The notes: a model not told the origin generated them from the sequence alone. A DNA stretch of 64,000 nt from an uncultured Gammaproteobacteria bacterium (GCA_964512625.1 CAZEKG010000004.1:9223-73222), one strand, 5' to 3'. Positions 1-13,981 are shown, numbered from the stretch's first letter. Numbers and translations: made by a program.

Positions 1-404
1 ATCAAAAAATCAAGAAAGAAGAGATTACTAATCTAGAGTCCGTCTGCTCAGATGTTTTATCTTTTGAAATAATCCAAGAAAAATATCAAGTTATAATCAT
101 TATTAATACCTTGCAATTCTTGCCACGAGAAAAATGCTTAAAATTAATAACTAACATTAAAAATAAAATAGCATTAAACGGATTTGTTGTCATCAAGGCT
201 TTTACTACCAGTGATTCCAGTTTTATTAGGAACAGGGATAATACTAATAATACCTTCTTCACTCCCAATGAATTGAAAGATTTATTTGATGACTTTAAAG
301 TTCTTCACCATTTCGAATTCATAGCGCTTGATCCTGGTCATGGAGATAAACCAGAACCTCATTTACATGGCATTGTAGAATTAGTTGCTCAAAGAACAAA
401 ATGA
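1..404 (+). CDS. class I SAM-dependent methyltransferase, C-terminal part (TehB-like); 5' end lies outside the window
   Basis: The frame is open from position 3 through the listed ORF at 111..404. The C-terminal region resembles small TehB-type methyltransferases, but no motif I is visible because the N-terminus is missing. Confidence 0.4.
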   Translation, partial: QKIKKEEITNLESVCSDVLSFEIIQEKYQVIIIINTLQFLPREKCLKLITNIKNKIALNGFVVIKAFTTSDSSFIRNRDNTNNTFFTPNELKDLFDDFKVLHHFEFIALDPGHGDKPEPHLHGIVELVAQRTK

Positions 405-440
405 TTTATTATTAGTCACCCACCAAACACGAAATTTTAA

Positions 441-497
441 CATCTCCTCTCGATAAAGTTGGAAGACTTGTCTAAAGTCGTAGAATGTAGCTTTACC
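441..497 (+). repeat. R1 promoter-like repeat, copy 1 (TTGGAA-16 nt-TAGAAT)
   Basis: ~50 bp at ~88% identity to 7527..7581. It contains -35-like TTGGAA, a 16-nt spacer and -10-like TAGAAT. Confidence 0.55.
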
Positions 498-514
498 ACC
501 AAGTAGAAAGTACA

Positions 515-1162
515 ATGAGCTCATACCTATCAATCAAAAAATCAGAGGTAAATAAAGTTCTGTATTCTTTCCTAAAAACAACAAAAAAAGAGTTGGACCT
601 CTTTTTTAATATAAAAAGCCATGAACCATTAATCTTTCTTTTAAATTCCAGAAAAGAATTAGATTTAATTTGGGGAAATAAGACGGAAAAATGGCATGTT
701 GGCGGAACAAGGTGGCTAATAGGGGGTGGGACGAAGCAAGGCGTCATTTTCATCCTTAATCCAGAAGTTTACACTAAAGAATCAAGCCATAAAGATAAGA
801 ACGACTTTTGGAAAACCCTTAAACATGAATATACTCACATCTATTTTAAACAGCTTACGGACGGAGTACTTCCTCTTTGGCTTAATGAAGGAATAGCTTC
901 ATATCTATCCGATCAAAGGCAATCCTGCAAAAACCCTTTAAACATCTTTTCCTATTTTAATAAATCAGATAAAGACATCTATGCTATTGGTTATTTCTGG
1001 GTTGAACTACTAATAAATAAATTCGGGAAAGACAAACTAGTAGGACTGATAAAATCCTTGGAATTAAAACCAAGCTTAACTGAAAAGATATTCAATGAAA
1101 GATTTTATAAAATATACGGTTTTAAATTCAACAAGGCTAATCTTAGTAAGTTAATCGATTAA
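515..1162 (+). CDS. MA-clan (gluzincin-like) zinc metallopeptidase-like protein
   Basis: HEYTH followed ~17 residues later by LWLNEGIA (HExxH...NEG), the signature of thermolysin/M1-like gluzincins. A weak RBS precedes the start, and an R1 promoter-like element lies immediately upstream. Confidence 0.5.
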   Translation: MSSYLSIKKSEVNKVLYSFLKTTKKELDLFFNIKSHEPLIFLLNSRKELDLIWGNKTEKWHVGGTRWLIGGGTKQGVIFILNPEVYTKESSHKDKNDFWKTLKHEYTHIYFKQLTDGVLPLWLNEGIASYLSDQRQSCKNPLNIFSYFNKSDKDIYAIGYFWVELLINKFGKDKLVGLIKSLELKPSLTEKIFNERFYKIYGFKFNKANLSKLID

Positions 1163-1285
1163 GATTAAGAAAATACTTCAAAAAAGAGGCCCGACTTATT
1201 CTTTAAATACATACCAGATAGTATGAAAGATAAAGCAAACTCCATGATTTATAAATCATCTATTGTATAAATAACGTTTATTTCT

Positions 1286-1738
1286 ATGTTCAGAAAAGGA
1301 GTTTCTGCGCTTATCAAAAACAAAAAAGACGAGTTTCTTTTAGTTAATTTAGAATCTTTTGAAGAAAAGTATTTCGCAATTCCAGGCGGCGGAGTTGAGC
1401 AGGGTGAGACACTGGAAGATGCTGTATACCGAGAAATAAAAGAAGAGTTAGGAATTGAAAGGAAGTATCTTGAATTTATAGGCCAAAGCAACATTCCTAT
1501 TAGATTCAAATTTAAGGTAATTAAAATGAATAGAGACGGGGGAAACTACGAAGGTTCGGAGAGATACTTTTTTGGATTTAGATTTATTGGTAATAAAAAA
1601 ATAATAGTTCCAAACCCAGGAGAGGTCCGATCTTACAAATGGATCGCTTATGACGAGTTAAAAAAATATTTACTCTTCGATAATCAGCTGCGGGAAACGT
1701 CAGATAAAATAAAAGAAATATTTCTTAACTTACCGTGA
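1286..1738 (+). CDS. NUDIX hydrolase
   Basis: Nudix box GGGVEQGETLEDAVYREIKEELGIE (GX5EX7REUXEEXGU). Confidence 0.8.
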   Translation: MFRKGVSALIKNKKDEFLLVNLESFEEKYFAIPGGGVEQGETLEDAVYREIKEELGIERKYLEFIGQSNIPIRFKFKVIKMNRDGGNYEGSERYFFGFRFIGNKKIIVPNPGEVRSYKWIAYDELKKYLLFDNQLRETSDKIKEIFLNLP

Positions 1739-1799
1739 TTTTTGTCGTGCGTCTTATGATGGGTCATAATAACTATATAAGGGCATGCTTGAAAAGACT

Positions 1800-1862
1800 A
1801 AAAACTTCCTTTTCTGCTTAGTTTTATGGTATAGTTTTAAGATAAATTAGAATAAAATATGG
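1800..1862 (+). repeat. R2 promoter-like repeat, copy 1 (extended -10 TGgTATAGT)
   Basis: ~60 bp similar to 7748..7809. It ends at the ATG of the 1859 gene. Confidence 0.55.
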
Positions 1863-2368
1863 CAAAAATAAAAATAATTATCTCTTGGGACGGAATAAAA
1901 AGGGAGCTTGAAATGACACTAAAAAATCATCATCACGGCAATTTTAAACGCTGGGGATTAAAGCCTATACTACCGCCACGCAGATCAAGAGAAAGCTATA
2001 TAAATGCTGCTAAAAGATACTATCAAGAATCTGATCGGAAAAACAAAATACAGAGCATTATTCCAGAAATGGAAGCTTGGTGGGATAGAGAAGGTTATTT
2101 ACTTTCAAAAAAAGCCTCCGAAATAACGAGGATTAGTGAACCATCTATTTACTATGTAATTCTAACTCCCTTCGGTCCCGGAGGCGGATATAATAAATTA
2201 GCAAATACTGTTTTTATTAGAATTACCAGTCTCGATAACAGCGATTGGTGGAAAAAAGTAATTATACACGAGGTTGCCCATATATTAAATGGATCAAAAC
2301 TACAAAAAGTTCATAAAGAAAACGAGAGAAAGATTAATGAAATTGTAAGAAAATTACAGACGAAATAG
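1859..2368 (+). CDS. hypothetical small HExxH protein (putative metallo-hydrolase)
   Basis: C-terminal HEVAH motif. The R2 promoter-like element lies immediately upstream. There is no other recognisable domain. Confidence 0.4.
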   Translation: MAKIKIIISWDGIKRELEMTLKNHHHGNFKRWGLKPILPPRRSRESYINAAKRYYQESDRKNKIQSIIPEMEAWWDREGYLLSKKASEITRISEPSIYYVILTPFGPGGGYNKLANTVFIRITSLDNSDWWKKVIIHEVAHILNGSKLQKVHKENERKINEIVRKLQTK

Positions 2369-2460
2369 AAATATGTTAACAAATACAGATAGGATAATAC
2401 AGCTATAAACCAAAAAAACTAGCCTAATTTTAGATATTTTTTTAAGAAAATAATCCGAAA

Positions 2461-3156
2461 CTATTTCTTAATGATAATAATTGCCTCATCCAGTAAATTT
2501 TGAAAATCCTTATTTTTTGACCAAATATTTTTTAATTTCTTTCTTAGCTCTTTATGTTCAGGATATCCGGGATCTTGGCATAATATAATTTTGTTAAACT
2601 CCGGCTCATTCAGTAAAAAAGTTAAAGATTCTTTCAAATCTTCAATCTGGTTATTTTCCAACCCTTTTCTTTTTACGTAGTCTTTGTAGTGATGCAGAAA
2701 CTGCAAGTGCATTATTTCATGGCAAATGGTCGTAATAGAAAAAGAAGTGCTGTGCCACATCGAAGCCATAAACCAGCTTTCTTTTTCGTTATAAGGACAA
2801 ACAAAGCCAGTAGTAAAGTAACAACTGAATTTTTCTTTAAAAATAGGCTTTTTCATGATTAGCTTAAGGGCTTTGAAATACTTTTTTTCAACTAGCCTCC
2901 ATGATTTTTCGAGCGCCTGCATTTCAAAACGCATCACCTTATTTTTGTAATCTTTTTTTGGATTATTTTTAATATAGTCCTCAACTATTTTTTGGGCGCG
3001 AAAAAAACTGGCTTTTTCGATTTTTTCTAAAAGCTCATCCGGAATCTGGGCAATTTGTTCACGCCAATTCAAGCCCCACATATTTTTGTCTTTGGCAATC
3101 AAAACCCAGCTCCAGGCGTCTTTATTGAGATTGTAGTCAAATTTAACTTTTGTCAT
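2461..3156 (-). CDS. hypothetical HExxH protein
   Basis: HEIMHLQFLHH motif in the C-terminal half. A Cys-containing segment precedes it. Family not recognised. Confidence 0.4.
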   Translation of the reverse strand: MTKVKFDYNLNKDAWSWVLIAKDKNMWGLNWREQIAQIPDELLEKIEKASFFRAQKIVEDYIKNNPKKDYKNKVMRFEMQALEKSWRLVEKKYFKALKLIMKKPIFKEKFSCYFTTGFVCPYNEKESWFMASMWHSTSFSITTICHEIMHLQFLHHYKDYVKRKGLENNQIEDLKESLTFLLNEPEFNKIILCQDPGYPEHKELRKKLKNIWSKNKDFQNLLDEAIIIIKK

Positions 3157-3160
3157 GGAT

Positions 3161-3658
3161 TTACTTATTTAATAATCGCCGTATTCTTGCTATTGCCTCT
3201 TTAATAGATGATTCTGTCGATACCAACTTGCCGCCAATCTCTAAGATAAAACTTTTTGCCATGGCGTCACAGTTCAAAAGAATTACTGGTTTTTTAGCTT
3301 TAATTGCCAATGCAACCTCAGAAAGAGTTCCGCTTGAAATCTTACCGCACGCGACAACAACATCACTAGATAATACGTTAATGTTGTTTCTGGCGCTTCC
3401 CATATTTGTTATAATTGGCACATCAACCCAATCAGATGCGAGCCGTGCATTTCTATGAGGAATAATACCAATAGTTAATCCTCCTACAGATTTTGCTCCT
3501 TTATTCACCGCATCCATAATACCTTTATTTCTTCCGCCACTTAAAACTACCCACCCAGATTCAGCAATTGATTTGCCCAATTCAAAAGCAAGGTCACTGT
3601 CTATGTCACGTGCCCCCTCACCCGATCCCATTACTCCAATAATAATCTGCCTGCTCAT
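3161..3658 (-). CDS. TIGR00725 / LOG-like (SLOG) Rossmann-fold nucleotide-binding protein
   Basis: N-terminal IGVMGSG glycine-rich loop, PVILLN and a GGxxT-like core, typical of the YgdH/LOG lysine-decarboxylase-like family. It is tightly coupled to the upstream HD gene. Confidence 0.65.
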   Translation of the reverse strand: MSRQIIIGVMGSGEGARDIDSDLAFELGKSIAESGWVVLSGGRNKGIMDAVNKGAKSVGGLTIGIIPHRNARLASDWVDVPIITNMGSARNNINVLSSDVVVACGKISSGTLSEVALAIKAKKPVILLNCDAMAKSFILEIGGKLVSTESSIKEAIARIRRLLNK

Positions 3659-3661
3659 AGG

Positions 3662-4222
3662 TTAAAAATTTAATAATTTATTACTCTGTCTTGGCTCATC
3701 AAACCAGATACGGGCACTGATGGTGTCGCAACAGTGAACAAATGCGGCAAGAGGATTCATTATTCGTTTGGTATCGTGATAATCATTCTTTTCTCCTTCT
3801 ACATACTTAAGAGCATTTGATTGATCTCTTGTAAGTGAAATTTTTAATCGTTTCGCAATAATTATTGCTGACTGATATTTTGGATTACCTGCAAGAGCCG
3901 CGGGTATTGGCCGACCTCGCCCGTCTATGGTCATATTATATATTTTTTCCAAATCATGAAAGAAGAGAACATAAAGCGCATCTGAAAGCGTAAAAAGAAG
4001 CTGTCGCTGATTATTGAGCGTTTCATAAAGTAAGCAAGCAATCGACATAGTTTCTACTAAATGGCCGACATATCCTCCCTTCCAATTCTGATGCTTATGA
4101 AGACCCCCTGGAGCGCTTTGAAATCGCTCGCCCTCATTTTTTATGATAGCCAAAACATGCCTGCGATCGCTTAGCTTGATTTTTTTGACTAAAGTATTTA
4201 GCTGTTCTAAGTGATTTACCAT
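3662..4222 (-). CDS. HD-domain phosphohydrolase
   Basis: H...HD signature (GHLVETMS ... LFFHDLEKI). The start was moved to the internal Met (MVNHLEQ) preceded by an extended -10 (TGcTAAAAT). The longer ORF to 4303 is also possible. Confidence 0.5.
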   Translation of the reverse strand: MVNHLEQLNTLVKKIKLSDRRHVLAIIKNEGERFQSAPGGLHKHQNWKGGYVGHLVETMSIACLLYETLNNQRQLLFTLSDALYVLFFHDLEKIYNMTIDGRGRPIPAALAGNPKYQSAIIIAKRLKISLTRDQSNALKYVEGEKNDYHDTKRIMNPLAAFVHCCDTISARIWFDEPRQSNKLLNF

Positions 4223-4329
4223 GAATTTATAATATAATATTTTAGCATATAAAAACAAATATCCCATAAAAAACCTCGCCCCGAGATAGCTTGACCCTGT
4301 CATAGTTTATTAGTAATATAAACAAAGAG

Positions 4330-4839
4330 ATGCTTAGCTCCCATGTCTTCAAAAATCGTAAAATAAAAATAGAACTAAATAATAACACTCATAACACATT
4401 TATGTCAACCCCAAAAAACGCTGTTTCAGCTGGAGGAGTTATTGTAAAAAAAGAAAATGAATCATTTTTTATTCTTCTCTTAAGAGATACCCGTTTCCCT
4501 GAATGGTATTTTGCAAAAGGCCATGTCGAGCCAGGTGAAACCCTAGAACAAGCAGCCATGCGCGAGGTGGCCGAAGAAGCGGGATTACATCATCTTAAAA
4601 TTTATTCTTTACTTGGTTCATATGAACGTTTTGTCGAAAAGGCTAACGAACAAAAAACCATTCATTACTTCCTAATGTCACCAACACGAGAAGAGACGCC
4701 TTCGGAACCGGAAAATAAAAATGTGGAATTAAAATGGTTTCCGCTAGAGGAGTTGCCGGTTATGTATTTGCCAGAGCAAAAAGATGTCGTTGAAAAAAAT
4801 TTAGAGAAGATAAAAAACTCCCTAAGTGCGAATACTTAG
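4330..4839 (+). CDS. NUDIX hydrolase
   Basis: Nudix box GHVEPGETLEQAAMREVAEEAGL. An alternative start is at 4402. Confidence 0.75.
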   Translation: MLSSHVFKNRKIKIELNNNTHNTFMSTPKNAVSAGGVIVKKENESFFILLLRDTRFPEWYFAKGHVEPGETLEQAAMREVAEEAGLHHLKIYSLLGSYERFVEKANEQKTIHYFLMSPTREETPSEPENKNVELKWFPLEELPVMYLPEQKDVVEKNLEKIKNSLSANT

Positions 4840-4861
4840 GGAGCGGGAAACGATTAAACAG

Positions 4862-5788
4862 TTATGGTGCGATGTGATGATGCATGTCCGTAAGAGATAT
4901 GATTCCGTCTCCAAGATCACGACCTACGACTTCAACAAGTGTGCCAGCAGGAGTCACTGGATCTCTCAACCAGTGATGAGACCAAACTTGATAGATTTGA
5001 CCAGATGGCTTTTGTACGACATATTTTCTTGGAAAAAGCCACGCAGCAGCACTATCAATAACGTGAGCATTCATTCGAATCTCAGGTGCCAGATATGAAT
5101 CATCATCATAAAGCCTAGCCGGAATTTTATCTCGTTCATCTTCGCCATACGTGAAAATGAACGAGATTTTTTGTCCCTGGTAGTACACTTTCGTCAAATC
5201 GCCTGCAAATACTGAATGAAGATACCCCTGATCGAGGCCATACATTTTCGCATAACGCTCTGCGTAAGACGAGACTACCTTCTTCGTCATAAGCTCCAGC
5301 TCCCTATTGAGCAAGGCATCTTCAATAGCCCGCCTGCACGAATGTGCGGATGAACTATTAAAAATAAGCAAGTCAATATCGAAGTCTAGTGCCTCACAAC
5401 CAAGACTAACCGACCCGCCAAGTCCACACTGATGACTCGCAATTCCGGCCGCCTGCAAAATACCCTTAACAATGCCGACGCGCGAATCAGAGCTTGTAAG
5501 CCAATTCTCAAATACCTGATGTGAGTCTATGCGACCAACAATGTGTTCGGCCGGAATCATTACCGACCATGGATCAATCTGAGCACATCTGATATATGGT
5601 TGCTTAGGAAGTAGGTCTGATCTTTGGTGGCGTAAAAACTTGTCATAACGCCTGCCAGAATACACCCGCTCACCGGCTTCGCTGGGAAAATACATCGGTC
5701 TTCCAAATAGATTACCCCTCTTCGAATACAGAGATCCGATCGAGTAAATCCATCCGGAAACCGTAACAACGGGACACAAAAGATTCAT
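4862..5788 (-). CDS. Pol-beta superfamily nucleotidyltransferase (GS...DxDxD)
   Basis: GLGGSVSLGCEALDFDIDLLIF matches the hG[GS]x9-13Dh[DE]h minimal-NTase motif, and acidic clusters lie downstream (YGEDERD, YDDD). The gene is G+C-rich relative to its flanks. Its start abuts the stop of the upstream gene. Confidence 0.5.
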   Translation of the reverse strand: MNLLCPVVTVSGWIYSIGSLYSKRGNLFGRPMYFPSEAGERVYSGRRYDKFLRHQRSDLLPKQPYIRCAQIDPWSVMIPAEHIVGRIDSHQVFENWLTSSDSRVGIVKGILQAAGIASHQCGLGGSVSLGCEALDFDIDLLIFNSSSAHSCRRAIEDALLNRELELMTKKVVSSYAERYAKMYGLDQGYLHSVFAGDLTKVYYQGQKISFIFTYGEDERDKIPARLYDDDSYLAPEIRMNAHVIDSAAAWLFPRKYVVQKPSGQIYQVWSHHWLRDPVTPAGTLVEVVGRDLGDGIISLTDMHHHIAP

Positions 5789-5790
5789 TG

Positions 5791-6762
5791 TTAGATCTCC
5801 TTTCTTAGAATCTCTTTAATTTGTTCATGGAGATTATCTGGTGAAACATCTTGGTTATTTGTAATGGCATAACCACAAAGACTCACCAGACCGCCCAAAT
5901 CATTCTGCTCATACGTCGGCCACAAACCATCGCGATGAGCATCAAGTTCTATCAACCATCCTTGATCGGCCGATTTTTCAATCTCACGACCACGGATTTT
6001 CGCTCGAGTATGTCGCAAAGCATTAGTTGACTGGAGATGAATAAAAATCACTCTTCCATAACAAGAAAGCAACTCCGCTTCAGACCATCGCAGAAGACTG
6101 CCTAAGAATATTTGCCGCTGAGTCTGGGCAGTCACCCCGCGTTGTTGCAAGACAAGCTGCAACGGTTCATCCTCCCAATTCTCTCTTAATGGAAGAGCCG
6201 CAAGCTTGGCGGGACAATCCTCTTTAATACGATCAAGCTCTCGATATAACTCAAGCACCTCATCACCTTCTTTTTCAAAAATACTAAGAACACTTGACTT
6301 ACCAGAACCCTTAAGACCGATAATCCCAATAAAGAGATTTGATCCCTGCGGCGACAGTGCGTAACGCTGGCCGTGAAAAATACGAAAAGCCCTCGAATAA
6401 ATTCTTTGGCATAATCTATTCTTCATAAAAATGGCGGATTCATCCAACCCGCCAATCAGGCCTGTAATGTACGCTTCCGCTTTTAGATATCCAGCAGAAT
6501 TTAATTCCACAATAACTTGAGCGAGTTTTGAAGAAATGCATTCGCTTACTGGATTCTCATACCATCTCCAAGTCCCAGTGTCTCCATAAATTCTATCGAG
6601 TACGTGGCGTAGCTCGTTTTGAGTTGAGACATCATGAGTGATAGACTCGTCCGCCAAGAGAAGGGTCGATAGGGCAAGTGTCGATTCTTCCCGCAATAAT
6701 TCCAAGTATGATCCACTATAAACCTCGCGAAGAAAAGATCCCAAACCAGTTTCAGAAAACAT
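5791..6762 (-). CDS. P-loop NTPase / nucleotide-kinase-like protein with an uncharacterised ~170-aa N-terminal domain
   Basis: Walker A GIIGLKGSGKSS resembles CoaE/uridine-kinase-type small kinases. The start was chosen at the Met adjacent to the PRTase stop. The longer ORF to 6840 would overlap the PRTase gene by 77 nt. Confidence 0.45.
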   Translation of the reverse strand: MFSETGLGSFLREVYSGSYLELLREESTLALSTLLLADESITHDVSTQNELRHVLDRIYGDTGTWRWYENPVSECISSKLAQVIVELNSAGYLKAEAYITGLIGGLDESAIFMKNRLCQRIYSRAFRIFHGQRYALSPQGSNLFIGIIGLKGSGKSSVLSIFEKEGDEVLELYRELDRIKEDCPAKLAALPLRENWEDEPLQLVLQQRGVTAQTQRQIFLGSLLRWSEAELLSCYGRVIFIHLQSTNALRHTRAKIRGREIEKSADQGWLIELDAHRDGLWPTYEQNDLGGLVSLCGYAITNNQDVSPDNLHEQIKEILRKEI

Positions 6763-6763
6763 G

Positions 6764-7393
6764 TCAACCTCCAATCCACTCCTTGAAAGTAGTTGTCCCA
6801 TATAACAATTGATATGAGAGTATGGCCTGGCGCTCATCAATACTTAAGTAAGGGATGATATCCCTAAGCCGAGATATGGAAATCAAGTCCAAACCATTCT
6901 GAGCCTTAATGCGGTCCGCGGTACTCAAACCATCTTCACCCACATCCTCACGATCAAAAATGCGAACAATGGTTTTAGGATGATGTCCGAATGGGCTTAT
7001 CATATCTAAAACCTTTACGACAGTTTCACCCGTAGTAACCGCATTATCTATCAAAATCGTAGTTTCTTCATTATCAGCAACTTCAATGCTCTGCTCCATT
7101 TTACGAGGATATATAATTGAGAGCTTAACACGCCTACCCAACCTTAATCCATGTTCATAAATAGCTTCCGCCAAAGGAATCCCACTATTCGCAATTCCAA
7201 TAAAATGGGCCGCTTCCAATGATGAGAATTTATTGATTCTCCATGTTGCCGCGGCCATGACCTGAAAAACATCCCCTAGAAGAGTTTTTGGTAGGCGCAC
7301 AGTATAAGGAGACACTCGACCGTTTTTGAAAGTAACTTCATTAAACTGGTATAGTCCGTAATGAAGCAAGTAAGAAGCCTGATTCGAGTTCAT
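6764..7393 (-). CDS. type I phosphoribosyltransferase (PRTase)
   Basis: PRPP-binding motif TILIDNAVTTGETV. The RBS GGAGA lies 6 nt before the ATG of MNSNQ. The gene is G+C-rich. Confidence 0.65.
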   Translation of the reverse strand: MNSNQASYLLHYGLYQFNEVTFKNGRVSPYTVRLPKTLLGDVFQVMAAATWRINKFSSLEAAHFIGIANSGIPLAEAIYEHGLRLGRRVKLSIIYPRKMEQSIEVADNEETTILIDNAVTTGETVVKVLDMISPFGHHPKTIVRIFDREDVGEDGLSTADRIKAQNGLDLISISRLRDIIPYLSIDERQAILSYQLLYGTTTFKEWIGG

Positions 7394-7526
7394 GTACTTT
7401 CTCCTTTCCAGTTGAAAGTCAAACAAGTAATTGTGAAATGTACGAAACTTTTTGTAATGAACGTTATAATGAGCACTTCACTACCACTAAAAACCATATA
7501 ATAAAATGGATATTTTGTCAAGCCAA

Positions 7527-7581
7527 AAATCTCCCCGATAACGTTGGAAGATTTGTCTAAAGTCGTAGAATATGACTTTAC
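7527..7581 (+). repeat. R1 promoter-like repeat, copy 2
   Basis: Same architecture as copy 1. It is upstream of the small Cys-rich ORF. Confidence 0.55.
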
Positions 7582-7666
7582 AAATCCCGAATTCCAACGA
7601 GTAATCAAGCTGCTCTTAAACAGAGGGTTCATCTCTCTATAACTAGGAAGAAAGGAGACGGGCGCC

Positions 7667-7792
7667 ATGTTCGAAGAAATGCACGCTTATGCAGTGAACG
7701 GCCAAAGCTGCGATAGCGCAGATGCCAGTGGCTGTGACTGCTATCAGCGCCCTTCCCCTTCTTATGTGTTTTATGGTATAATTTTAGAGTAA
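7667..7792 (+). CDS. 41-aa Cys-rich small peptide (MFEEMHAYAVNGQSCDSADASGCDCYQRPSPSYVFYGIILE)
   Basis: Strong RBS AAAGGAG 8 nt upstream of the ATG. The R1 promoter-like element is ~90 nt upstream. Four Cys residues. Not in the ORF track because it is shorter than 60 aa. Confidence 0.35.
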   Translation: MFEEMHAYAVNGQSCDSADASGCDCYQRPSPSYVFYGIILE

Positions 7793-7809
7793 ATTAGAAT
7801 AAAATATGG
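7748..7809 (+). repeat. R2 promoter-like repeat, copy 2 (extended -10 TGgTATAAT)
   Basis: Contains gttttatggtataattttagagtaaattagaataaaatATGgc, which ends at the plsC start. Confidence 0.55.
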
Positions 7810-8435
7810 CTTATTGGTTAATAAAAAAACTGCTTTCCCCATTAGTTAAGGCCGTTTGGGTTGAAAAAGTAGAAGGAATAGAAAACATCCCTAGAACCGG
7901 GTCAGCTATTTTAGCATTTAATCATTGTAGTTATATGGACTTTATTACTTTTGGAGCTGTATCGCCCAGATTAGTTTTCTATCTGGCTGGTGAGGTTTTT
8001 TTTAAAAAATGGTGGTGGAGACCACTGGTTATATTAACTGGACAAGTAAAGGTTGATCGTCAAAGCAAAGATAAATCCAATTCTATAAAACAAGCTCTCT
8101 CAATACTTAAACAGCAAAAATTATTAGGCATATTCCCTGAAGGAACAAGATCAGCTAATGGCAAGCTCCAAAAAGCCTATTCTGGAGTAGCTAAAATAGC
8201 TATAGCTAGCCAAGTAAACATTATACCGGTTGGCCTTATCGGAACTTATGAAATTATGTCACGTCATAATAAGTTTCCCAAATTAAATAAAAAATGCCGT
8301 ATAATAATTGGAAATCCCATAGACCTGTCAGAATACTACGGCCAAGAATATAATCAAGAAATTATAGATATGATAACTAATAAAAAAATAATGCCAGAAA
8401 TAGCTAGGCTTAGTGGACAAGATTACACCTATTAA
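7806..8435 (+). CDS. plsC: 1-acyl-sn-glycerol-3-phosphate acyltransferase
   Basis: HX4D motif NHCSYMD and FPEGTRS motif. Confidence 0.75.
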   Translation: MAYWLIKKLLSPLVKAVWVEKVEGIENIPRTGSAILAFNHCSYMDFITFGAVSPRLVFYLAGEVFFKKWWWRPLVILTGQVKVDRQSKDKSNSIKQALSILKQQKLLGIFPEGTRSANGKLQKAYSGVAKIAIASQVNIIPVGLIGTYEIMSRHNKFPKLNKKCRIIIGNPIDLSEYYGQEYNQEIIDMITNKKIMPEIARLSGQDYTY

Positions 8436-8508
8436 ATTCTAATAGATAATTACTTTATTTTTTCATCTATTTCGTGTTATAATTAAGTCAAGATGACTTA
8501 ATTTTTTT

Positions 8509-9168
8509 ATGGCTGGAATAGTGTTTTTTGATCTGGACGGGACAATGGTCTGTGGACAAACACAGCAAATGTTAATAAAATACTTATTTCATAAAAATAG
8601 GCTCAACTTTTTTTACCTATTAATCTCACTCTTATGGTTTGCACTATATAAAATAAGAGTCGTTAGGAATGTTGAAAAAATTATGTCCCAATCCTATAAA
8701 ATAATAAAAGGATGGGATTATGAAGACACTCAAATTCTAATAAAAGATTTTTTCGATACAGAAATAAAAAAAAAGATATATCCTCAAGCAATAGCTATTA
8801 TAAAAAAATATCAATTAGATGGCAAAGACATTGTAATAATATCAAATACACCACAAATAATAGTAAATGAGATTATAAAATATTTCAACTTAAGTCATGG
8901 CTATGGAACTAGATTAGAAATTATCAATAATAAATTTACTGGAAAAATATCTGGCCATGCTGTTTATGGAATAGAAAAGGTTAACCTTATAAAGAGAGAA
9001 ATGCCACACATAGATTTTAATAAAAAAAATACCATTTCCTATTCAGATCATTACTCAGATATTCCTTTATTAAAACTTACTTCGAAAAGTTTTGTAGTAA
9101 ACCCAGATAAAAAACTAAAGATTGCTGCCATTAAAAATAAATGGCAATTAGTCAACTTCTTTATATGA
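8509..9168 (+). CDS. HAD-IB family hydrolase
   Basis: FFDLDGT motif I, the size of a HAD-IB (phosphoserine-phosphatase-like) member. It has an ATGA overlap with the next gene. Confidence 0.6.
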   Translation: MAGIVFFDLDGTMVCGQTQQMLIKYLFHKNRLNFFYLLISLLWFALYKIRVVRNVEKIMSQSYKIIKGWDYEDTQILIKDFFDTEIKKKIYPQAIAIIKKYQLDGKDIVIISNTPQIIVNEIIKYFNLSHGYGTRLEIINNKFTGKISGHAVYGIEKVNLIKREMPHIDFNKKNTISYSDHYSDIPLLKLTSKSFVVNPDKKLKIAAIKNKWQLVNFFI

Positions 9169-11366
9169 GCATCTTCGCCATATCATGCCTAGCTGTAGCA
9201 ATACTTTCTATAGTATTGGGTGGTTTAGTTTATATTAGAAATAAGTCAGGAAAAATAAATCGTTCCTGGTTTTTTGTTACATTTTCTATTTTTTGCTGGT
9301 CACTTAGTTTTTGGGGGGTAGTTACAGCCAAAGATCAAAACATAGCTTTATTTTGGCAAAGAATTCTAGATATTTCTGGAATATTCATACCTATAACATT
9401 TCTTGATTTTGTCTTAGTTCTTTTGGATGAAAATAAATCACAAAGATATAAAGTTAAAATATACTTAATATATTTGATTGGTATAATCTTTTCGGTAATT
9501 AGTCTATTTCCTATTTTTAAAATAGGAATGAAACAAGTCTTTAATTTTCCTTACTGGATAAATCCTGGCCCATTATATTTTATATTTCCAGGAATGTTTT
9601 TTACTTTAGTGATTTATTTTTCATACCTTCTTTTTAAAAACTACTTTAAACTAACTGGGTTAAAAAAAATACAGATAGGTTATGTGCTTCTAGCTAGTAT
9701 AGTAGGTTTCGGCGGAGGAATAACAGATTTTTTCCCTCAGTTAATACAGATATATCCAGTGGGACACTATTTTGTAGCCTTTTATGTTGTTTTTATAAGC
9801 TACGCGATTAGTCGCTATCGTCTAATGGAAATAAAAACGATCATTAAAAGATCATCCGTTTTCGCATTACTTGTAATGCTAATAGGTGCTACATTCGTAT
9901 TATTATCATCTTTAATAAGCAACATGATTGCTATCTTATTTAATGAGACATCAAATACATTGACAGCCTTATTTGTAGCTATAATCATAACTCTGATATT
10001 TCAGCCTCTTAAAAACTTCTTAGAGAAGATAACCGATAAATTCTTATTTACTAAGGGATATAATCCATCATTAATTATATCTAGAATAACAGACCTAAAC
10101 TCTTCAATCACTAATTTAGATTTGCTACTATCATCAACTTCTGAGGTTTTAAATGACACCTTTTATTATTCAAAAATAGCTATTATCCTATTAGATGAAA
10201 AAAAGAAGTTAAAAATTGAATACCAAAAAGGCTTAGATATTAAAAATGTTTCTCAGTTTATTAGGGGCAAAGAAAGAGATCTAAAAAGAAATTTTTCTGA
10301 GACTAGAAATATTAAAGTTATCGACGAATTAAGATCTAGTTACGAGGCTGGGGAATATAAGCCGCAAAATATTAAACTTATATACCAACTATACGATTTA
10401 GATATTGCTTTAGTTATTCCCCTTTTTGTTAAGGATAAATTAACTGGTATTATCGCACTTGGAAACAAAAAATCGGGTGACCCATACAATAATCAAGACC
10501 TCCAACTCCTAAGTATTATTGCCGGACAATCAGCTGTATCAATAGAAAATGCCAAATTGTATGATGAATTGCAAGACTTCAACGTAAAACTCCAAAAAGA
10601 AGTTAAAAAAGCCACAGCCAAATTAGAAGTTGCCAACAAAGAACTGCAACGACTCGATCAATCAAAATCAGAATTCCTTTCCATCGCCTCCCATCAACTC
10701 CGAACGCCCTTAACCGTAATTAAAGGCTACTCTTCAATGATTCTCGAGGGCAGCTTCGGCCGAGTCCCGAAACTGATTAAGGAAAATATGGATAAGGTCT
10801 TTAGTTCAACCGAACGCCTTATTGCCCTCGTCGAAAACCTTTTAAATGTTTCCAGGATCGAAGCCGGCCGCATTCAGTTTGATCTTGAGCCAGTCGACCT
10901 TGAAAGCGTAGTTAAAGTCTTTATCGATGATTTCACCCCTAAAGCTGAAGCTAAAAAAATCAAACTCTCCTTCTACCCTGAAAAGAAATTGCCTAAAGTT
11001 CTTGCCGATCCTCAAAAGATTAAAGATGTCATTTCTAATCTACTTGATAATTCCATTAAATACACTCCGACAGGAGAAATTACCGTCTCCCTACATCTAG
11101 AAAGCCAATCGGTCGTCTTTGCCTGCCAGGATACAGGCATGGGCATCGATCCAAACGACTTGCCTCGATTATTCAATAAATTCGTAAGGGGTACTGATAT
11201 GAATAAAGTCCAAACCGACGGAACGGGATTAGGTCTTTATTACGCTAGGATGATTGTAGAGAATATGGGCGGCCGAATATGGGCGGAAAGCAACGGCAAA
11301 GGCAAAGGCAGCAAGTTCTGCTTCTCCCTTAACCTAGCCAATAAAGGCGAGGCGAAAAAAATGTAG
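9141..11366 (+). CDS. membrane-bound sensor histidine kinase (multi-TM sensor, GAF-like, HisKA, HATPase_c)
   Basis: H-box ASHQLRTPLTVIKGY. N/G boxes DNSIKYT ... DTGMGI ... GTGLGLYYARMIVENMGGRIWAES. The N-terminus is hydrophobic with ~7 TM segments. Confidence 0.8.
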   Translation: MAISQLLYMSIFAISCLAVAILSIVLGGLVYIRNKSGKINRSWFFVTFSIFCWSLSFWGVVTAKDQNIALFWQRILDISGIFIPITFLDFVLVLLDENKSQRYKVKIYLIYLIGIIFSVISLFPIFKIGMKQVFNFPYWINPGPLYFIFPGMFFTLVIYFSYLLFKNYFKLTGLKKIQIGYVLLASIVGFGGGITDFFPQLIQIYPVGHYFVAFYVVFISYAISRYRLMEIKTIIKRSSVFALLVMLIGATFVLLSSLISNMIAILFNETSNTLTALFVAIIITLIFQPLKNFLEKITDKFLFTKGYNPSLIISRITDLNSSITNLDLLLSSTSEVLNDTFYYSKIAIILLDEKKKLKIEYQKGLDIKNVSQFIRGKERDLKRNFSETRNIKVIDELRSSYEAGEYKPQNIKLIYQLYDLDIALVIPLFVKDKLTGIIALGNKKSGDPYNNQDLQLLSIIAGQSAVSIENAKLYDELQDFNVKLQKEVKKATAKLEVANKELQRLDQSKSEFLSIASHQLRTPLTVIKGYSSMILEGSFGRVPKLIKENMDKVFSSTERLIALVENLLNVSRIEAGRIQFDLEPVDLESVVKVFIDDFTPKAEAKKIKLSFYPEKKLPKVLADPQKIKDVISNLLDNSIKYTPTGEITVSLHLESQSVVFACQDTGMGIDPNDLPRLFNKFVRGTDMNKVQTDGTGLGLYYARMIVENMGGRIWAESNGKGKGSKFCFSLNLANKGEAKKM

Positions 11367-12333: not shown

Positions 12334-12981
12334 ATGGAAATCGATGGCTACATCAAGGGTTTTATGGGTCCAGTTCAACTGGAATGCCCGTTTGGTATCG
12401 CCTTATGGGCAAACAAAGCTCCTGGAAAGGGGTTTATTATGCATTCGGCATTGTCAGAAATATGCACTCATAAAAAACCATCCATTGTTGTTGATGACTA
12501 TCTTCCGATGGCAATATTTCACCGTTCTGTTGAAAAGCAGACAGAGATAAATGGTTTGTATTTTGAGGCATTATCCGAAAAGTGCTCGGAAATCAGCTTG
12601 ATGAGTGGTATTGTAAATCAGGCTGAGTATTTTAACAGAGTCATTGCAATGTTGGACAAGATAACGTTTTTGGGATTCGTAAGATGTTTGCCACAAAAAA
12701 AACTCGTCAGTGGCCTGGGGAGTATTGTTATGAGCGAAGTTTTGCATGCAGCTGCGGAATTATTTGTTTTCGAGCACATGAAATCAATGGGCTTGAAGAC
12801 AATAATCATCCCCCAATTCGCTCAGGCCATAATGTCCTTGCACCGCAATATCTCGGCTAATCCGCTAAGCGCTATTGTAACGTCCAATTTTGCAACCGAA
12901 ACAGACTTTGAGCGGCAAAGCCAGGAGTTATGGAGCTTGGCTGATCAGTTACTCGTCGCAATAAAAAGTCAAACCCAATAG
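12334..12981 (+). CDS. hypothetical protein (first gene of the tyrS operon)
   Basis: The RBS is tAGGAGaaagagagATG. No recognisable domain. G+C-richer than its surroundings. Confidence 0.5.
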   Translation: MEIDGYIKGFMGPVQLECPFGIALWANKAPGKGFIMHSALSEICTHKKPSIVVDDYLPMAIFHRSVEKQTEINGLYFEALSEKCSEISLMSGIVNQAEYFNRVIAMLDKITFLGFVRCLPQKKLVSGLGSIVMSEVLHAAAELFVFEHMKSMGLKTIIIPQFAQAIMSLHRNISANPLSAIVTSNFATETDFERQSQELWSLADQLLVAIKSQTQ

Positions 12982-13010
12982 AAGAGGAGAACGGAAAGGA
13001 GTAAGTAGTA

Positions 13011-13967
13011 ATGTATTTATTGTTGTCGTTTCTATCCACTAACTACAGTCAGTTAAACGATCACTGGCAAAAACATTCGGTTCTGAAGAAAGAAGGTAAG
13101 CGCGGTAGCGATAAGCCTTTTATCAAAGAGCTGGGTGGTTGTCTAGAAGTCATTGATTGGTCAACTAAACAAACTGTTTGGTCAATGCCTTTCAATAGTC
13201 CGGCCGGCACCTACCGGTTTTCGTCTGACTTACTAATGGTCAACTCTCTGCGGCAGGGAGCTATCAGTTTTGTTTCTCTGTCCAATAAGGCCGTAGTCGC
13301 AACTATCGGCAACGTTGCCTTCAATAAACCTCATTCGCTCATCAAAACAACCAGTGGTTTTATGGTTGCAAGCACGGGAGTTGACGCAATAGTGGAGGTG
13401 GATGGCAATGGCTCAATGCTCTATTCGTTCTTCTTCACAGAACACGGATACGAACTTGACCAACTCGGCACCAAACGATCGATTGATTTCAGTGCCAATC
13501 ATCAAGGCGTTGAATATCCTTCCTTGCACCAAACGACCCATGTAAACTATGCAAGGTATGTCGACGCTACCGAGACAAGAATCGTTGCCACATTGTTTCA
13601 TCCCGGTGAGCTGGTAATCATTGACAAAGAGTCCGGCGAAATAAAAATCATCTTGGATGGATTGAAAAATCCGCACAATCTGAAACCGGCTCTAGACAGA
13701 CAAGTCCTCTGTAATACATCGGCCAACGCCGTAATAGTAATGAACGGCGACTTCGAGATCATTGATCAGTTCGGCGACGGCCTGGGTATGTCTTGGGTAC
13801 AAGATGCCATATACTGTGAAGCAAGTGGTACCTTTATTGTGGCTGATGCGGATAATCATCGTTTGCTTGAACTCGACTGGAACGGAAGACCTGTCGACGA
13901 TTACTCGTTTTCACAGGACAACCGTATTTACGAAGTTTGTGAATTCAATGGAAATGTCAAGCCATAA
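13011..13967 (+). CDS. beta-propeller (NHL/SMP-30-like repeat) protein
   Basis: AAAGGAG RBS. Repeated FIVADADNHRLLELD-type NHL-like motifs. Confidence 0.45.
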   Translation: MYLLLSFLSTNYSQLNDHWQKHSVLKKEGKRGSDKPFIKELGGCLEVIDWSTKQTVWSMPFNSPAGTYRFSSDLLMVNSLRQGAISFVSLSNKAVVATIGNVAFNKPHSLIKTTSGFMVASTGVDAIVEVDGNGSMLYSFFFTEHGYELDQLGTKRSIDFSANHQGVEYPSLHQTTHVNYARYVDATETRIVATLFHPGELVIIDKESGEIKIILDGLKNPHNLKPALDRQVLCNTSANAVIVMNGDFEIIDQFGDGLGMSWVQDAIYCEASGTFIVADADNHRLLELDWNGRPVDDYSFSQDNRIYEVCEFNGNVKP

Positions 13968-13981
13968 GGAGGGGGCTGGCT

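What the first reader, a model, noticed from the sequence alone, without database searches (positions are those of the whole stretch)
1286..4839. Cluster of nucleotide-signal-processing-type domains: 2 NUDIX, SLOG/TIGR00725, HD, three small HExxH proteins
Within 3.5 kb there are two NUDIX hydrolases, a LOG-like SLOG Rossmann protein (a family proposed as nucleotide-derivative sensors/processors), an HD phosphohydrolase and three small HExxH putative metallo-hydrolases (515, 1859, 2461). They lie immediately next to the NTase/kinase/PRTase operon. A nucleotide generator beside several nucleotide hydrolases or sensors resembles the published nucleotide-centred conflict-system layout (established knowledge of domain associations; the assignment here is inference).
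Basis: inference. Interest (0 to 1): 0.6.

Follow-up and report, generated by a model that had tools for sequence, protein, structure and literature searches.

The report
Rare five-gene nucleotide-building cassette
Two of the flagged genes (an HD hydrolase and one NUDIX hydrolase) form, with the neighbouring phosphoribosyltransferase-kinase-nucleotidyltransferase operon, a very rare and uncharacterised five-gene cassette that recurs in ultra-small (CPR) bacteria, while the SLOG protein, the other NUDIX and the HExxH proteins are just neighbours.

Summary
The domain calls are largely right. There are two NUDIX hydrolases, a SLOG/TIGR00725 protein, a divergent HD protein and three HExxH proteins.

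The grouping is wrong. Comparison with six independent related loci shows one conserved unit of exactly five genes:
- HD-like hydrolase (3662-4222, -)
- ApnA-hydrolase-like NUDIX (4402-4839, +)
- OB-flanked pol-beta nucleotidyltransferase (4862-5788, -)
- NMP-kinase-like P-loop kinase with a novel helical N-domain (5791-6762, -)
- OPRT-like phosphoribosyltransferase (6764-7393, -)

The unit keeps its content at 28-82% identity, with unrelated flanks. It also occurs in a lineage that reads UGA as a sense codon. It is extremely rare: 14 NTase clusters among 5.8 billion proteins. No defence or phage library models it as a system.

SLOG (Moco-carrier-protein-like), NUDIX1 and two HExxH proteins never travel with it. 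The 231-aa HExxH protein does so only in the closest relative.

No effector or sensor-effector fusion is present, so the "nucleotide-signalling conflict system" reading is not supported as stated.

My best guess, by inference: a base plus PRPP gives an NMP, the kinase phosphorylates it, and the NTase transfers a nucleotide to an acceptor. NUDIX and HD turn the product over. The substrate and the biological role are unknown.

The parts
6764..7393 (-). OPRT-like type I phosphoribosyltransferase (209 aa). First gene of the three-gene operon.
   Evidence: PDB orotate PRTases hit at E=7e-7, full length. TIGR00336 scores 42 bits, far below its 106.8 cutoff, so this is not PyrE. NGRxSPY and FDRE(D/E) are conserved. 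The PRPP loop reads D-N-A-x-T-[TS]-G-x-T in all 7 orthologues. Orthologues are 31-67% identical in L001, L007, L008, L010, L011 and L015.
5791..6762 (-). Two-domain kinase-like protein (323 aa): a helical N-domain with no detectable relatives (residues 1-130) and a P-loop NMP/nucleoside-kinase-like domain.
   Evidence: AF2 model with pLDDT 92.9. Foldseek best matches are a Sulfolobus adenylate-kinase-related protein, 3lw7 (2e-5), then dephospho-CoA kinases and UMP/CMP and adenylate kinases. Walker A GLKGSGKS and an arginine-rich RHxRAxxRGRxxE segment (read as a LID by analogy) are invariant. Only 13 homologue clusters exist among 5.8e9 proteins. The start lies 1 nt after the PRTase stop codon.
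4862..5788 (-). Pol-beta-type nucleotidyltransferase (308 aa) with an N-terminal beta domain and a C-terminal OB-like barrel.
   Evidence: Invariant G-G-S...D-x-D at residues 124-139. AF2 pLDDT is 81, with domains at 1-86, 89-230 and 236-308. Foldseek finds only OB-fold matches, E about 0.02. In the wider family, 39 of 61 members hit NTP_transf_2 and 15 hit MTPAP-like_central. The profile hits Trf4 (0.004) and MntA (0.012). There are 14 clusters among 5.8e9 proteins.
4402..4839 (+). NUDIX hydrolase 2 (145 aa), convergent on the NTase gene. The most conserved protein of the module.
   Evidence: PF00293, E=9.6e-23. Best PDB matches are T. thermophilus Ndx1 (8e-15) and the Aquifex Ap4A hydrolase (7e-11). 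It is 76-82% identical in L001-L010, 69% in L021, and 45-52% in L011 and L015. It always sits convergently after the NTase gene.
3662..4222 (-). HD-superfamily hydrolase, YhaM-HD-like (186 aa; the ORF extends to 4303).
   Evidence: Invariant H44, H54, H89, D90, K93, H163, D166. The profile hits YhaM at E=6e-4. 18 of 65 relatives hit Pfam HD and 7 hit TraI_2. It is present in every module locus where the contig allows the test, but in three different positions.
4817..4844 (-). Terminator-like hairpin (11-bp stem plus a T-run), 18 nt after the NTase stop codon and inside the 3' end of the convergent NUDIX gene.
   Evidence: This is a consensus scan only; function is not shown.
4379..4408 (-). 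Promoter-like site (TTGACA-18-TATTAT, 11 of 12, with TG) upstream of the HD gene, in the HD/NUDIX2 divergent spacer.
   Evidence: This is a consensus scan only. It fits the corrected NUDIX2 start at 4402.
7493..7521 (-). Promoter-like site upstream of the PRTase-kinase-NTase operon.
   Evidence: 10 of 12 matches. Consensus scan only.
3161..3658 (-). SLOG / Moco-carrier-protein-like gene. In this genome it is wedged 3 nt after the HD gene. It is NOT part of the conserved module.
   Evidence: PF18306, 1.8e-46. PDB 6y01 at 1e-44 and 2iz5 at 5e-40. No homologue in any related locus.
2461..3156 (-). 231-aa HExxH protein of no known family, 4 nt after the SLOG gene. A possible lineage-specific companion, seen only in the closest relative.
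   Evidence: 76% identical orthologue in L007, co-oriented with HD and separated from it by a different gene. Absent from L001, L008, L010, L011 and L015. No Pfam, NCBIfam, PDB or PHROG hit.

Best explanation
The real feature is a conserved, rare five-gene cassette that straddles the right edge of the flagged region. It consists of HD-like hydrolase, NUDIX hydrolase, and the operon OPRT-like PRTase -> NMP-kinase-like kinase -> OB-flanked pol-beta NTase.

Proposed mechanism:
1. The PRTase condenses a free, probably non-canonical, base with PRPP to give a nucleoside 5'-monophosphate.
2. The kinase phosphorylates that product towards the di- or triphosphate.
3. The NTase uses this nucleotide, or ATP, to nucleotidylate an acceptor hydroxyl. 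Its beta/OB domains and the poly(A)-polymerase-like affinities of its wider family point to an RNA 3' end or a second nucleotide as the acceptor.
4. The ApnA-hydrolase-like NUDIX and the YhaM-like HD enzyme hydrolyse the product or surplus precursor, which makes the process reversible or self-limiting.

What is shown: the five-gene linkage, the fold or family of each protein, and intact catalytic motifs. What is inferred: the order of reactions, the substrates and the acceptor.

The SLOG, NUDIX1 and HExxH genes are neighbours, not components. The 231-aa HExxH protein may be an accessory in one sub-lineage.
For: Linkage:
- All five genes are found in the window, L001-6 (Hainich groundwater), L007 (GCA_030649205.1), L010 (Logan), L011 (GCA_043800435.1; 32-52% identity) and L015 (28-45% identity, UGA read as a sense codon).
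- L008 (Uhrbacteria) has four of the five and is cut by the contig end where HD could lie.
- PRT>kinase>NTase are always co-directional, with small gaps or overlaps. The NUDIX gene is always convergent on the NTase gene. The HD gene takes three different positions.
- An all-against-all comparison of flanks finds no other gene shared across loci, apart from the 231-aa protein in L007.

Enzymology:
- PRTase: OPRT-like, with PRPP-binding motifs.
- Kinase: NMP-kinase fold, invariant Walker A and a conserved arginine-rich LID-like segment.
- NTase: GGS/DxD motif plus an OB-like barrel.
- NUDIX: intact box, nearest to Ap6A/Ap4A hydrolases.
- HD: invariant metal ligands, YhaM-like.

Rarity: 14, 13 and about 20-70 clusters for the NTase, kinase and HD protein respectively among 5.8e9 proteins. 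About 5 of 185,579 species genomes carry it.
Against: - No biochemical data exist, and no characterised homologue is closer than superfamily level for the NTase, the HD protein or the kinase N-domain.
- The PRPP loop has D-N instead of the usual acidic pair, so the PRTase chemistry may be atypical.
- The OB-fold assignment rests on weak Foldseek matches (E about 0.02).
- No riboswitch or ligand clue was found.
- The HD-like family and distant NTase relatives also occur alone in other genomes, so each protein can work outside the module.
Confidence: 0.45

Rival explanations
1. The whole stretch 1286-7426 is one nucleotide-second-messenger conflict system. The NTase makes a signal, the SLOG protein senses it, the HExxH proteins act as effectors, and the NUDIX and HD enzymes degrade the signal.
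For: In this genome HD, SLOG and the 231-aa HExxH gene are separated by only 3-4 nt and look co-transcribed. The 231-aa HExxH protein is also near the module in L007. SLOG domains do sense nucleotides in Thoeris ThsA (established knowledge).
Against: - SLOG, NUDIX1 and the HExxH proteins at 515 and 1859 are absent from every other module locus.
- The SLOG protein is a stand-alone Moco-carrier-like protein with no effector domain.
- No PADLOC system matches.
- The NTase has no CD-NTase/SMODS hit.
- The conserved module has no toxic effector.
Confidence: 0.08
2. The five-gene cassette is an immune or conflict module that works without a classical effector. It might synthesise an antiviral nucleotide analogue (viperin-like logic), or edit the nucleotide pool or RNA ends of an invader. 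NUDIX and HD would protect the host.
For: - Distribution is patchy and rare across divergent CPR lineages.
- Some loci lie beside mobile or defence-type genes: a serine recombinase and a D5-like primase in L015, an rve integrase in L011, AbiEii and Fic in L007, and type-IV-secretion-like genes in L008.
- HD-like relatives occur in phages: phrog_5889 at 3.8e-7, and a 635-kb phage.
Against: - Module GC tracks host GC everywhere (0.28-0.52), and in L015 the genes contain recoded UGA. This points to long residence rather than recent mobility.
- No PADLOC hit.
- None found in 2.9 million viral contigs.
- Other loci (L010, L001) have housekeeping or cell-wall neighbours.
Confidence: 0.2
3. The cassette is a non-orthologous salvage route for a dinucleotide cofactor, NAD-like. 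PRTase would make the mononucleotide, the NTase would adenylylate it, the kinase would phosphorylate it, and NUDIX and HD would recycle it. It would parallel NadV-NadM/Nudix clusters.
For: The enzyme classes match NAD salvage clusters in outline: PRTase + adenylyltransferase + Nudix (established knowledge; phage NAD pathways are reviewed in PMC9503650). CPR bacteria lack many cofactor pathways (established knowledge). The kinase resembles dephospho-CoA and NMP kinases.
Against: - The PRTase is OPRT-like type I, not Nampt/PncB type II.
- The NTase is pol-beta type with an OB fold, not a HIGH-motif NMNAT.
- A core cofactor pathway would not be confined to about 14 protein clusters.
- An OB-fold domain is unexpected for a small-molecule adenylyltransferase.
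Confidence: 0.12
4. The genes are unrelated house-cleaning or housekeeping enzymes that lie together by chance.
For: NUDIX and HD enzymes are common sanitising enzymes. This description probably does fit NUDIX1, SLOG and the HExxH genes at 515 and 1859, which show no conserved linkage.
Against: For the five-gene core, linkage is kept in seven contexts with unrelated flanks, down to 28-35% identity and across a genetic-code change. The HD gene is repositioned yet retained.
Confidence: 0.03

Closest known systems
Nucleotide-centric conflict systems / CBASS-type layouts (Burroughs et al. 2015, NAR; recalled, paper not held in the library)
   Same: A pol-beta-fold NTase sits next to NUDIX and HD hydrolases. 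A SLOG protein is nearby in this one genome.
   Different: There is no CD-NTase/SMODS signature and no sensor-effector fusion. No effector is conserved. SLOG is not conserved with the module. No PADLOC model matches.
NAD salvage clusters NadV (Nampt) + NadM/Nmnat-Nudix, and phage NARP2 (PMC9503650; otherwise recalled)
   Same: The logic is similar: PRTase makes a mononucleotide, an NTase joins it to a second nucleotide, and a Nudix enzyme is present in the same cluster.
   Different: The PRTase is OPRT-like type I. The NTase is pol-beta type with an OB fold rather than a Rossmann HIGH-motif enzyme. The module has an extra P-loop kinase and an HD protein, and its distribution is extremely narrow.
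Ter-associated 'nucleoside-like metabolite' biosynthetic module with PRTases (Anantharaman, Iyer, Aravind 2012; cited in PMC5512222)
   Same: A PRTase is proposed to build an unusual nucleotide from a base and PRPP in an accessory, conflict-linked cluster. There is a weak PRTase_2 hit (E=0.0018, below cutoff).
   Different: This module has no TerD, ATP-grasp, HAD or aldolase partners. The Ter module has no pol-beta NTase, NUDIX or HD.
Phage nucleotide-pool editing cassettes, e.g. PurZ + DatZ (HD dATPase) + MazZ, or dNMP kinase + dNTPase sets (recalled)
   Same: A nucleotide-making enzyme and a nucleotide kinase are combined with HD and pyrophosphohydrolase enzymes that remove competing nucleotides.
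   Different: No PurZ or MazG homologues are present. The cassette is chromosomal in CPR bacteria and was not found in viral contigs. It also contains an NTase with an OB fold.
Non-canonical poly(A)/terminal nucleotidyltransferases (Trf4/MTPAP family) paired with the 3'-5' exonuclease YhaM
   Same: The wider NTase family hits MTPAP-like_central (15 of 61 members) and Trf4 (E=0.004). The HD partner is most like the HD domain of the YhaM exoribonuclease. Together they suggest an add/remove pair acting on RNA 3' ends.
   Different: The similarities are at motif or superfamily level only. The domain architecture (N-terminal beta domain plus C-terminal OB) is different, and the link to a PRTase and a kinase is unprecedented.

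Membership tests
Pol-beta nucleotidyltransferase superfamily (protein 4862-5788) | hG[GS] - x9-13 - [DE]h[DE]h motif on a beta-alpha-beta core | tested here: met
   G124, G125, S126 ... D137-x-D139 are invariant in 13 orthologues and in 61 wider relatives. The AF2 model has strand-helix-strand at residues 121-143.
Pol-beta nucleotidyltransferase superfamily (protein 4862-5788) | Significant match to a curated NTase model | tested here: inconclusive
   The window protein hits nothing. Its HMMER-linked relatives hit NTP_transf_2 in 39 of 61 cases, best E=5.6e-9. The wider profile hits Trf4 at 0.004.
CD-NTase / SMODS signalling nucleotidyltransferases (CBASS) | Match to CD-NTase/SMODS models, and an adjacent effector with a nucleotide-sensing domain | tested here: not met
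   No Pfam or PADLOC hit to such models. No effector gene is conserved in any locus.
HD phosphohydrolase superfamily (protein 3662-4222) | H ... HD ... D metal-binding residues | tested here: met
   H54, H89-D90 and D166, together with H44, K93 and H163, are invariant in 65 sequences.
HD phosphohydrolase superfamily (protein 3662-4222) | Match to PF01966 above threshold | tested here: inconclusive
   The window protein has no hit. 18 of 65 relatives hit HD, best E=2.7e-5. The profile hits YhaM's HD domain at 6e-4.
NUDIX hydrolases (1286-1738 and 4402-4839) | Nudix box GX5EX7REUXEEXGU and a PF00293 match above cutoff | tested here: met
   76.5 and 81.1 bits against a cutoff of 21.1. The box is intact in both proteins and in all NUDIX2 orthologues.
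Orotate phosphoribosyltransferase PyrE (6764-7393) | Score above the TIGR00336 equivalog cutoff, and the canonical acidic pair in the PRPP loop | tested here: not met
   42.1 bits against a cutoff of 106.8. The PRPP loop is D-N in all orthologues. It is OPRT-like in fold and PRPP motifs but is not a PyrE orthologue.
P-loop NMP/nucleoside kinases (5791-6762, C-domain) | Walker A motif, an arginine-rich LID, and a fold match to NMP kinases | tested here: met
   GLKGSGKS and the arginine-rich RHxRAxxRGRxxE segment are invariant. There are 33 Foldseek matches with E<=1e-3, all of them small-molecule P-loop kinases (nucleotide, dephospho-CoA, shikimate and gluconate kinases). The substrate is not testable here.
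SLOG superfamily, LDcluster4 / Moco-carrier-protein clade (3161-3658) | Match to PF18306 above cutoff | tested here: met
   158 bits against a cutoff of 26.3. PDB Moco carrier proteins hit at 1e-44 and 5e-40. TIGR00725 scores 101.7, marginally below 106.9.
Zincin metallopeptidases (515-1162, 1859-2368, 2461-3156) | HExxH plus a third ligand, and a match to a peptidase model | tested here: inconclusive
   HExxH is present in all three. Only 515-1162 reaches a cutoff (Peptidase_MA_2, 33.3 vs 32.4 bits; HExxH-x18-E). The other two have no family.
Known anti-phage defence systems (PADLOC-DB v2) | System-specific protein models matching the module proteins | tested here: not met
   Only generic NUDIX (PDC-S07) and weak SLOG hits. 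Nothing for the NTase, PRTase or HD protein, and only two sub-threshold hits (E about 0.04) for the kinase.

The most novel reading that the evidence does not exclude
The five-gene cassette is a previously undescribed pathway, confined to CPR bacteria. It would build a non-canonical nucleotide from a free base via PRPP, and then use a new OB-flanked pol-beta NTase family to install it on an RNA 3' end or to make a new dinucleotide signal. Dedicated NUDIX and YhaM-like HD 'eraser' enzymes would reverse this. That would be a new writer/eraser system for nucleotides, or a new kind of effector-less immunity.
Probability: 0.25. Interest if true: 0.8.

Novelty: new variant of a known kind. Interest (0 to 1): 0.55.

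Why it matters
Three of the five proteins have no curated family: the NTase, the HD-like hydrolase and the kinase N-domain. Yet they are held together by selection across deeply divergent ultra-small bacteria, including a recoded lineage. That is the signature of a real, unknown pathway.

CPR bacteria depend on salvaged bases and nucleotides. A dedicated base -> nucleotide -> transfer route with built-in hydrolases could reveal a new nucleotide derivative, RNA-end modification or immune chemistry.

For the scan, the result also shows that the visually striking 'domain cluster' is mostly coincidental. Only two of its seven genes belong to the conserved unit.

Tried and rejected
1. Exact-sequence look-ups of the window's SLOG and NTase proteins found no contig on record.
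2. Single-sequence PDB searches of the NTase, kinase, HD protein and the 231-aa HExxH protein gave nothing significant.
4. Horizontal-transfer-by-composition idea: rejected. The module's GC is within the window's gene distribution and tracks host GC in every locus.
5. Riboswitch or leader RNA that might name the ligand: no Rfam hit even at E<=1 in 1-8000.
6. Phage origin: no NTase relatives in 2.9 million viral contigs. Only the HD-like protein has a lone homologue, in one 635-kb uncultured phage, without the other genes.
7. A sixth conserved gene: an all-against-all comparison of flanks found none, apart from the 231-aa HExxH protein in L007.
8. Contexts of distant NTase relatives in DPANN archaea (L016, L022) and of HD-like paralogues (L012, L025) lack the module and gave no functional clue.
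9. Literature searches found no description of this gene combination. The Burroughs 2015 paper is not held.
10. MdcG/CitX-like holo-ACP synthase idea: only 1-3 of 61 wider relatives hit MdcG models, and an ACP gene is near the module in only one lineage. Not pursued.

Full report
**1. What is in the flagged region**

- 1286-1738 and 4330-4839 are NUDIX hydrolases (PF00293, E=2.6e-21 and 9.6e-23). Both have intact Nudix boxes.
- 3161-3658 is a SLOG protein (PF18306 LDcluster4, E=1.8e-46). TIGR00725 scores 101.7 bits, just under its 106.9 cutoff.
- More precisely, the SLOG protein is a close relative of Moco carrier proteins with solved structures (6y01 at 1e-44, 2iz5 at 5e-40).
- The 'HD' protein (3662-4303) has no Pfam, NCBIfam or PDB hit on its own.
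- Its family does show HD character. An alignment of 65 of its 71 detected homologues shows invariant H44, H54, H89-D90, K93, H163 and D166.
- Of those 65, 18 hit PF01966. The family profile hits the HD domain of the exoribonuclease YhaM (E=6e-4). HD is therefore right at family level.
- HExxH occurs in the three left-most proteins (515, 1859, 2461) and in none of the other 60 window proteins.
- Only 515-1162 reaches a model cutoff (Peptidase_MA_2; HExxH-x18-E). The three are not paralogues.
- What signal there is points to zincin peptidases, not nucleotide enzymes.

Orthologue alignments move four start codons:

| Gene | Corrected start |
|---|---|
| HD | 4222 |
| NUDIX2 | 4402 |
| Kinase | 6762 |
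| PRTase | 7393 |

**2. The neighbouring operon**

- 6764-7393 is an OPRT-like type I PRTase. PDB OPRTs hit at E=7e-7 over the full length.
- It is far below the PyrE equivalog cutoff. It has an invariant D-N in place of the usual acidic pair in the PRPP loop.
- 5791-6762 folds with high confidence (pLDDT 92.9) into two domains.
- The first is a 130-residue helical N-domain with no detectable relatives. The second is a P-loop domain.
- The P-loop domain best matches an adenylate-kinase-related protein, dephospho-CoA kinases and UMP/CMP kinases. Walker A and an arginine-rich LID-like segment are invariant.
- 4862-5788 carries an invariant GGS...DxD pol-beta NTase motif.
- Its model (pLDDT 81) has an N-terminal beta domain, the NTase core and a C-terminal five-stranded barrel. 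That barrel is the only part Foldseek can match, to OB folds at E about 0.02.
- A full HMMER scan of 1.84 billion representatives links it to about 300 clusters of similar length.
- Of 61 of these examined, 39 hit NTP_transf_2 and 15 hit the poly(A)-polymerase-like palm model. The wider profile hits Trf4 (0.004) and MntA (0.012).

**3. The decisive test: co-occurrence**

The NTase has only 14 homologue clusters among 5.8 billion proteins. All come from uncultured, mostly CPR-type bacteria. The kinase has 13.

I fetched their contigs and searched them with all window proteins. Five genes recur in every locus where the contig allows the test: PRTase, kinase, NTase, NUDIX2 and the HD-like protein.

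| Locus | Source | Identity to window | Module genes |
|---|---|---|---|
| L001-6 | Hainich groundwater | 55-81% | all five |
| L007 | GCA_030649205.1 | 66-81% | all five |
| L008/9 | Ca. Uhrbacteria | 57-82% | four; contig ends where HD could lie |
| L010 | Logan | 58-76% | all five |
| L011 | GCA_043800435.1 | 32-52% | all five |
| L015 | ENA metagenome contig | 28-45% | all five |
| L021 | 2.4-kb contig | 48-69% | NTase + NUDIX only |

- PRT>kinase>NTase are always co-directional and nearly or actually overlapping.
- NUDIX2 is always convergent on the NTase gene. It is the most conserved protein, at up to about 80% identity.
- The HD gene sits divergently upstream of the PRTase in L001, L010 and L011. 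It sits co-directionally upstream in L015. It lies beyond the NUDIX gene in the window and L007.
- A gene that is moved but retained is strong evidence of functional linkage.
- In L015 the genes contain 1-6 in-frame UGA codons, and neighbouring genes contain up to 22. The cassette therefore also lives in a recoded CPR lineage.
- An all-against-all comparison of everything flanking the module found no other shared gene. The one exception is the 231-aa HExxH protein, 75% identical, in L007 only.
- SLOG, NUDIX1 and the HExxH proteins at 515 and 1859 were found in no related locus.

**4. Local organisation in the window**

- Gaps of 1-2 nt join PRTase, kinase and NTase.
- An 11-bp hairpin with a T-run follows the NTase stop codon (4844-4817).
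- An 11-of-12 promoter-like site (4408-4379) precedes the HD gene. These are consensus matches only.
- HD, SLOG and the 231-aa HExxH gene are 3-4 nt apart and are probably co-transcribed here.
- In L007 a different gene, an alpha/beta hydrolase on the opposite strand, occupies the SLOG position. SLOG is therefore an insertion specific to this genome.
- The operon is not compositionally foreign. Its GC is 0.415, against a gene mean of 0.393 with sd 0.046.
- In every locus the module's GC follows the host's, from 0.28 to 0.52. The 'G+C-rich' impression comes from AT-rich flanks.

**5. What it probably does**

All five proteins keep their catalytic motifs, and all are small-molecule or nucleic-acid-end enzymes. 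The most economical reading is inference, not demonstration. It is a short pathway:

1. Base + PRPP gives an NMP (PRTase).
2. The kinase phosphorylates the NMP.
3. The NTase transfers a nucleotidyl group to an acceptor.
4. The Ap4A/Ap6A-hydrolase-like NUDIX and the YhaM-like HD enzyme remove the product or its precursors.

Three observations favour an RNA 3' end or a second nucleotide as the acceptor:
- the beta/OB domains on the NTase;
- the poly(A)-polymerase-like affinities of its wider family;
- the exonuclease-like affinity of the HD partner.

The biological role is open. Rarity, patchy distribution and some mobile or defence-type neighbours are compatible with an accessory or conflict role. 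Those neighbours are a serine recombinase plus a D5-like primase in L015, rve in L011, AbiEii and Fic in L007, and type-IV-secretion-like genes in L008.

Against that, three points hold:
- Composition is ameliorated in every host.
- PADLOC has no system model.
- No relatives were found in viral contigs.

The classical signal-sensor-effector scheme also fails, because no effector is present.

**6. Comparison with known systems**

- The cassette shares logic with NAD-salvage clusters (PRTase + adenylyltransferase + Nudix).
- It also shares logic with the PRTase-containing Ter-associated metabolite module and with phage nucleotide-pool editing sets (kinase + HD + pyrophosphohydrolase).
- It is a member of none of these. 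The PRTase is OPRT-like, not Nampt-like, and is not PyrE. The NTase is pol-beta type with an OB fold, not NMNAT or CD-NTase.
- No literature record of this combination was found.

**7. Verdict**

The link to the operon is real for the HD gene and one NUDIX gene. It is not real for the rest, and the 'conflict system' layout is not met.
- The genuine finding is a rare, uncharacterised five-gene nucleotide cassette of CPR bacteria.
- I rate it a new variant of a known kind (nucleotide-metabolising operons with NTase, NUDIX and HD), of moderate to good interest.

Noticed in passing
window 12334-14770: A co-directional trio just upstream of tyrS, with GC 0.42-0.47. Two proteins have no Pfam family (215 aa and 318 aa). 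The third is a 262-aa protein with a SAM_HAT_N domain (SAM hydroxide adenosyltransferase / fluorinase-chlorinase-like, E=1.4e-6). This may be another small nucleoside-related operon.
   Followed up: no
L015 1-14083 (ENA ERZ23491059 scaffold_4535; its NTase protein is named 'Spirochaetaceae bacterium 4572_7' at NCBI): Genes contain many in-frame TGA codons (5-22 per gene) and end in TAA or TAG. The contig therefore uses a UGA-sense code (code 25 or 4) and is probably a Gracilibacteria/Absconditabacteria-type CPR, not a spirochaete. The module there lies next to a serine recombinase, an HTH protein and a D5-like primase-helicase.
   Followed up: partly
L001-L003 (Hainich groundwater contigs), e.g. 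L001 13160-13447: A fragment 80% identical to the C-terminal 67 residues of NUDIX2 lies about 2 kb from the intact gene, beside a 402-aa NUDIX protein. On contig Hain_H41_01um_R2_598 the whole block of about 13.5 kb containing the module appears twice. This is either a tandem duplication or an assembly artefact.
   Followed up: no
L011 4242-4598 and 9698-10945: A 118-aa MacB_PCD fragment and a full MacB/FtsX gene bracket the module plus a metallo-beta-lactamase-fold gene. An rve integrase lies 0.3 kb from the fragment. This may be an insertion of the cassette into, or next to, a macB paralogue.
   Followed up: no
L031 9995-10519 (LR745206.1, 635-kb uncultured phage): A huge-phage genome encodes a lone homologue of the HD-like protein (39% identity over 92% of the query). 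It has none of the other module genes within 10 kb. The family also matches phrog_5889, of unknown function.
   Followed up: partly
L016 2548-4151 and L022 3859-6292 (DPANN archaea): Distant relatives of the NTase (25-31% identity) sit next to an unannotated protein of about 240 aa in both archaeal loci. In L022 they follow a class I methyltransferase and lie near a RIO kinase. This may hint at an RNA-related role for the wider NTase family.
   Followed up: partly
window 9141-11366 and L007 1-1870: Both the window and its closest relative carry a 7TM-GAF-HisKA sensor kinase a few kb from the PRTase end of the module. The two proteins are only 32% identical, so this is a shared architecture rather than clear orthology.
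   Followed up: no
window 7806-9168: A PlsC-type acyltransferase and a HAD hydrolase with very low GC (0.27-0.34) separate the module from the sensor kinase. The AT-rich flanks on both sides of the module are what make it look G+C-rich.
   Followed up: partly
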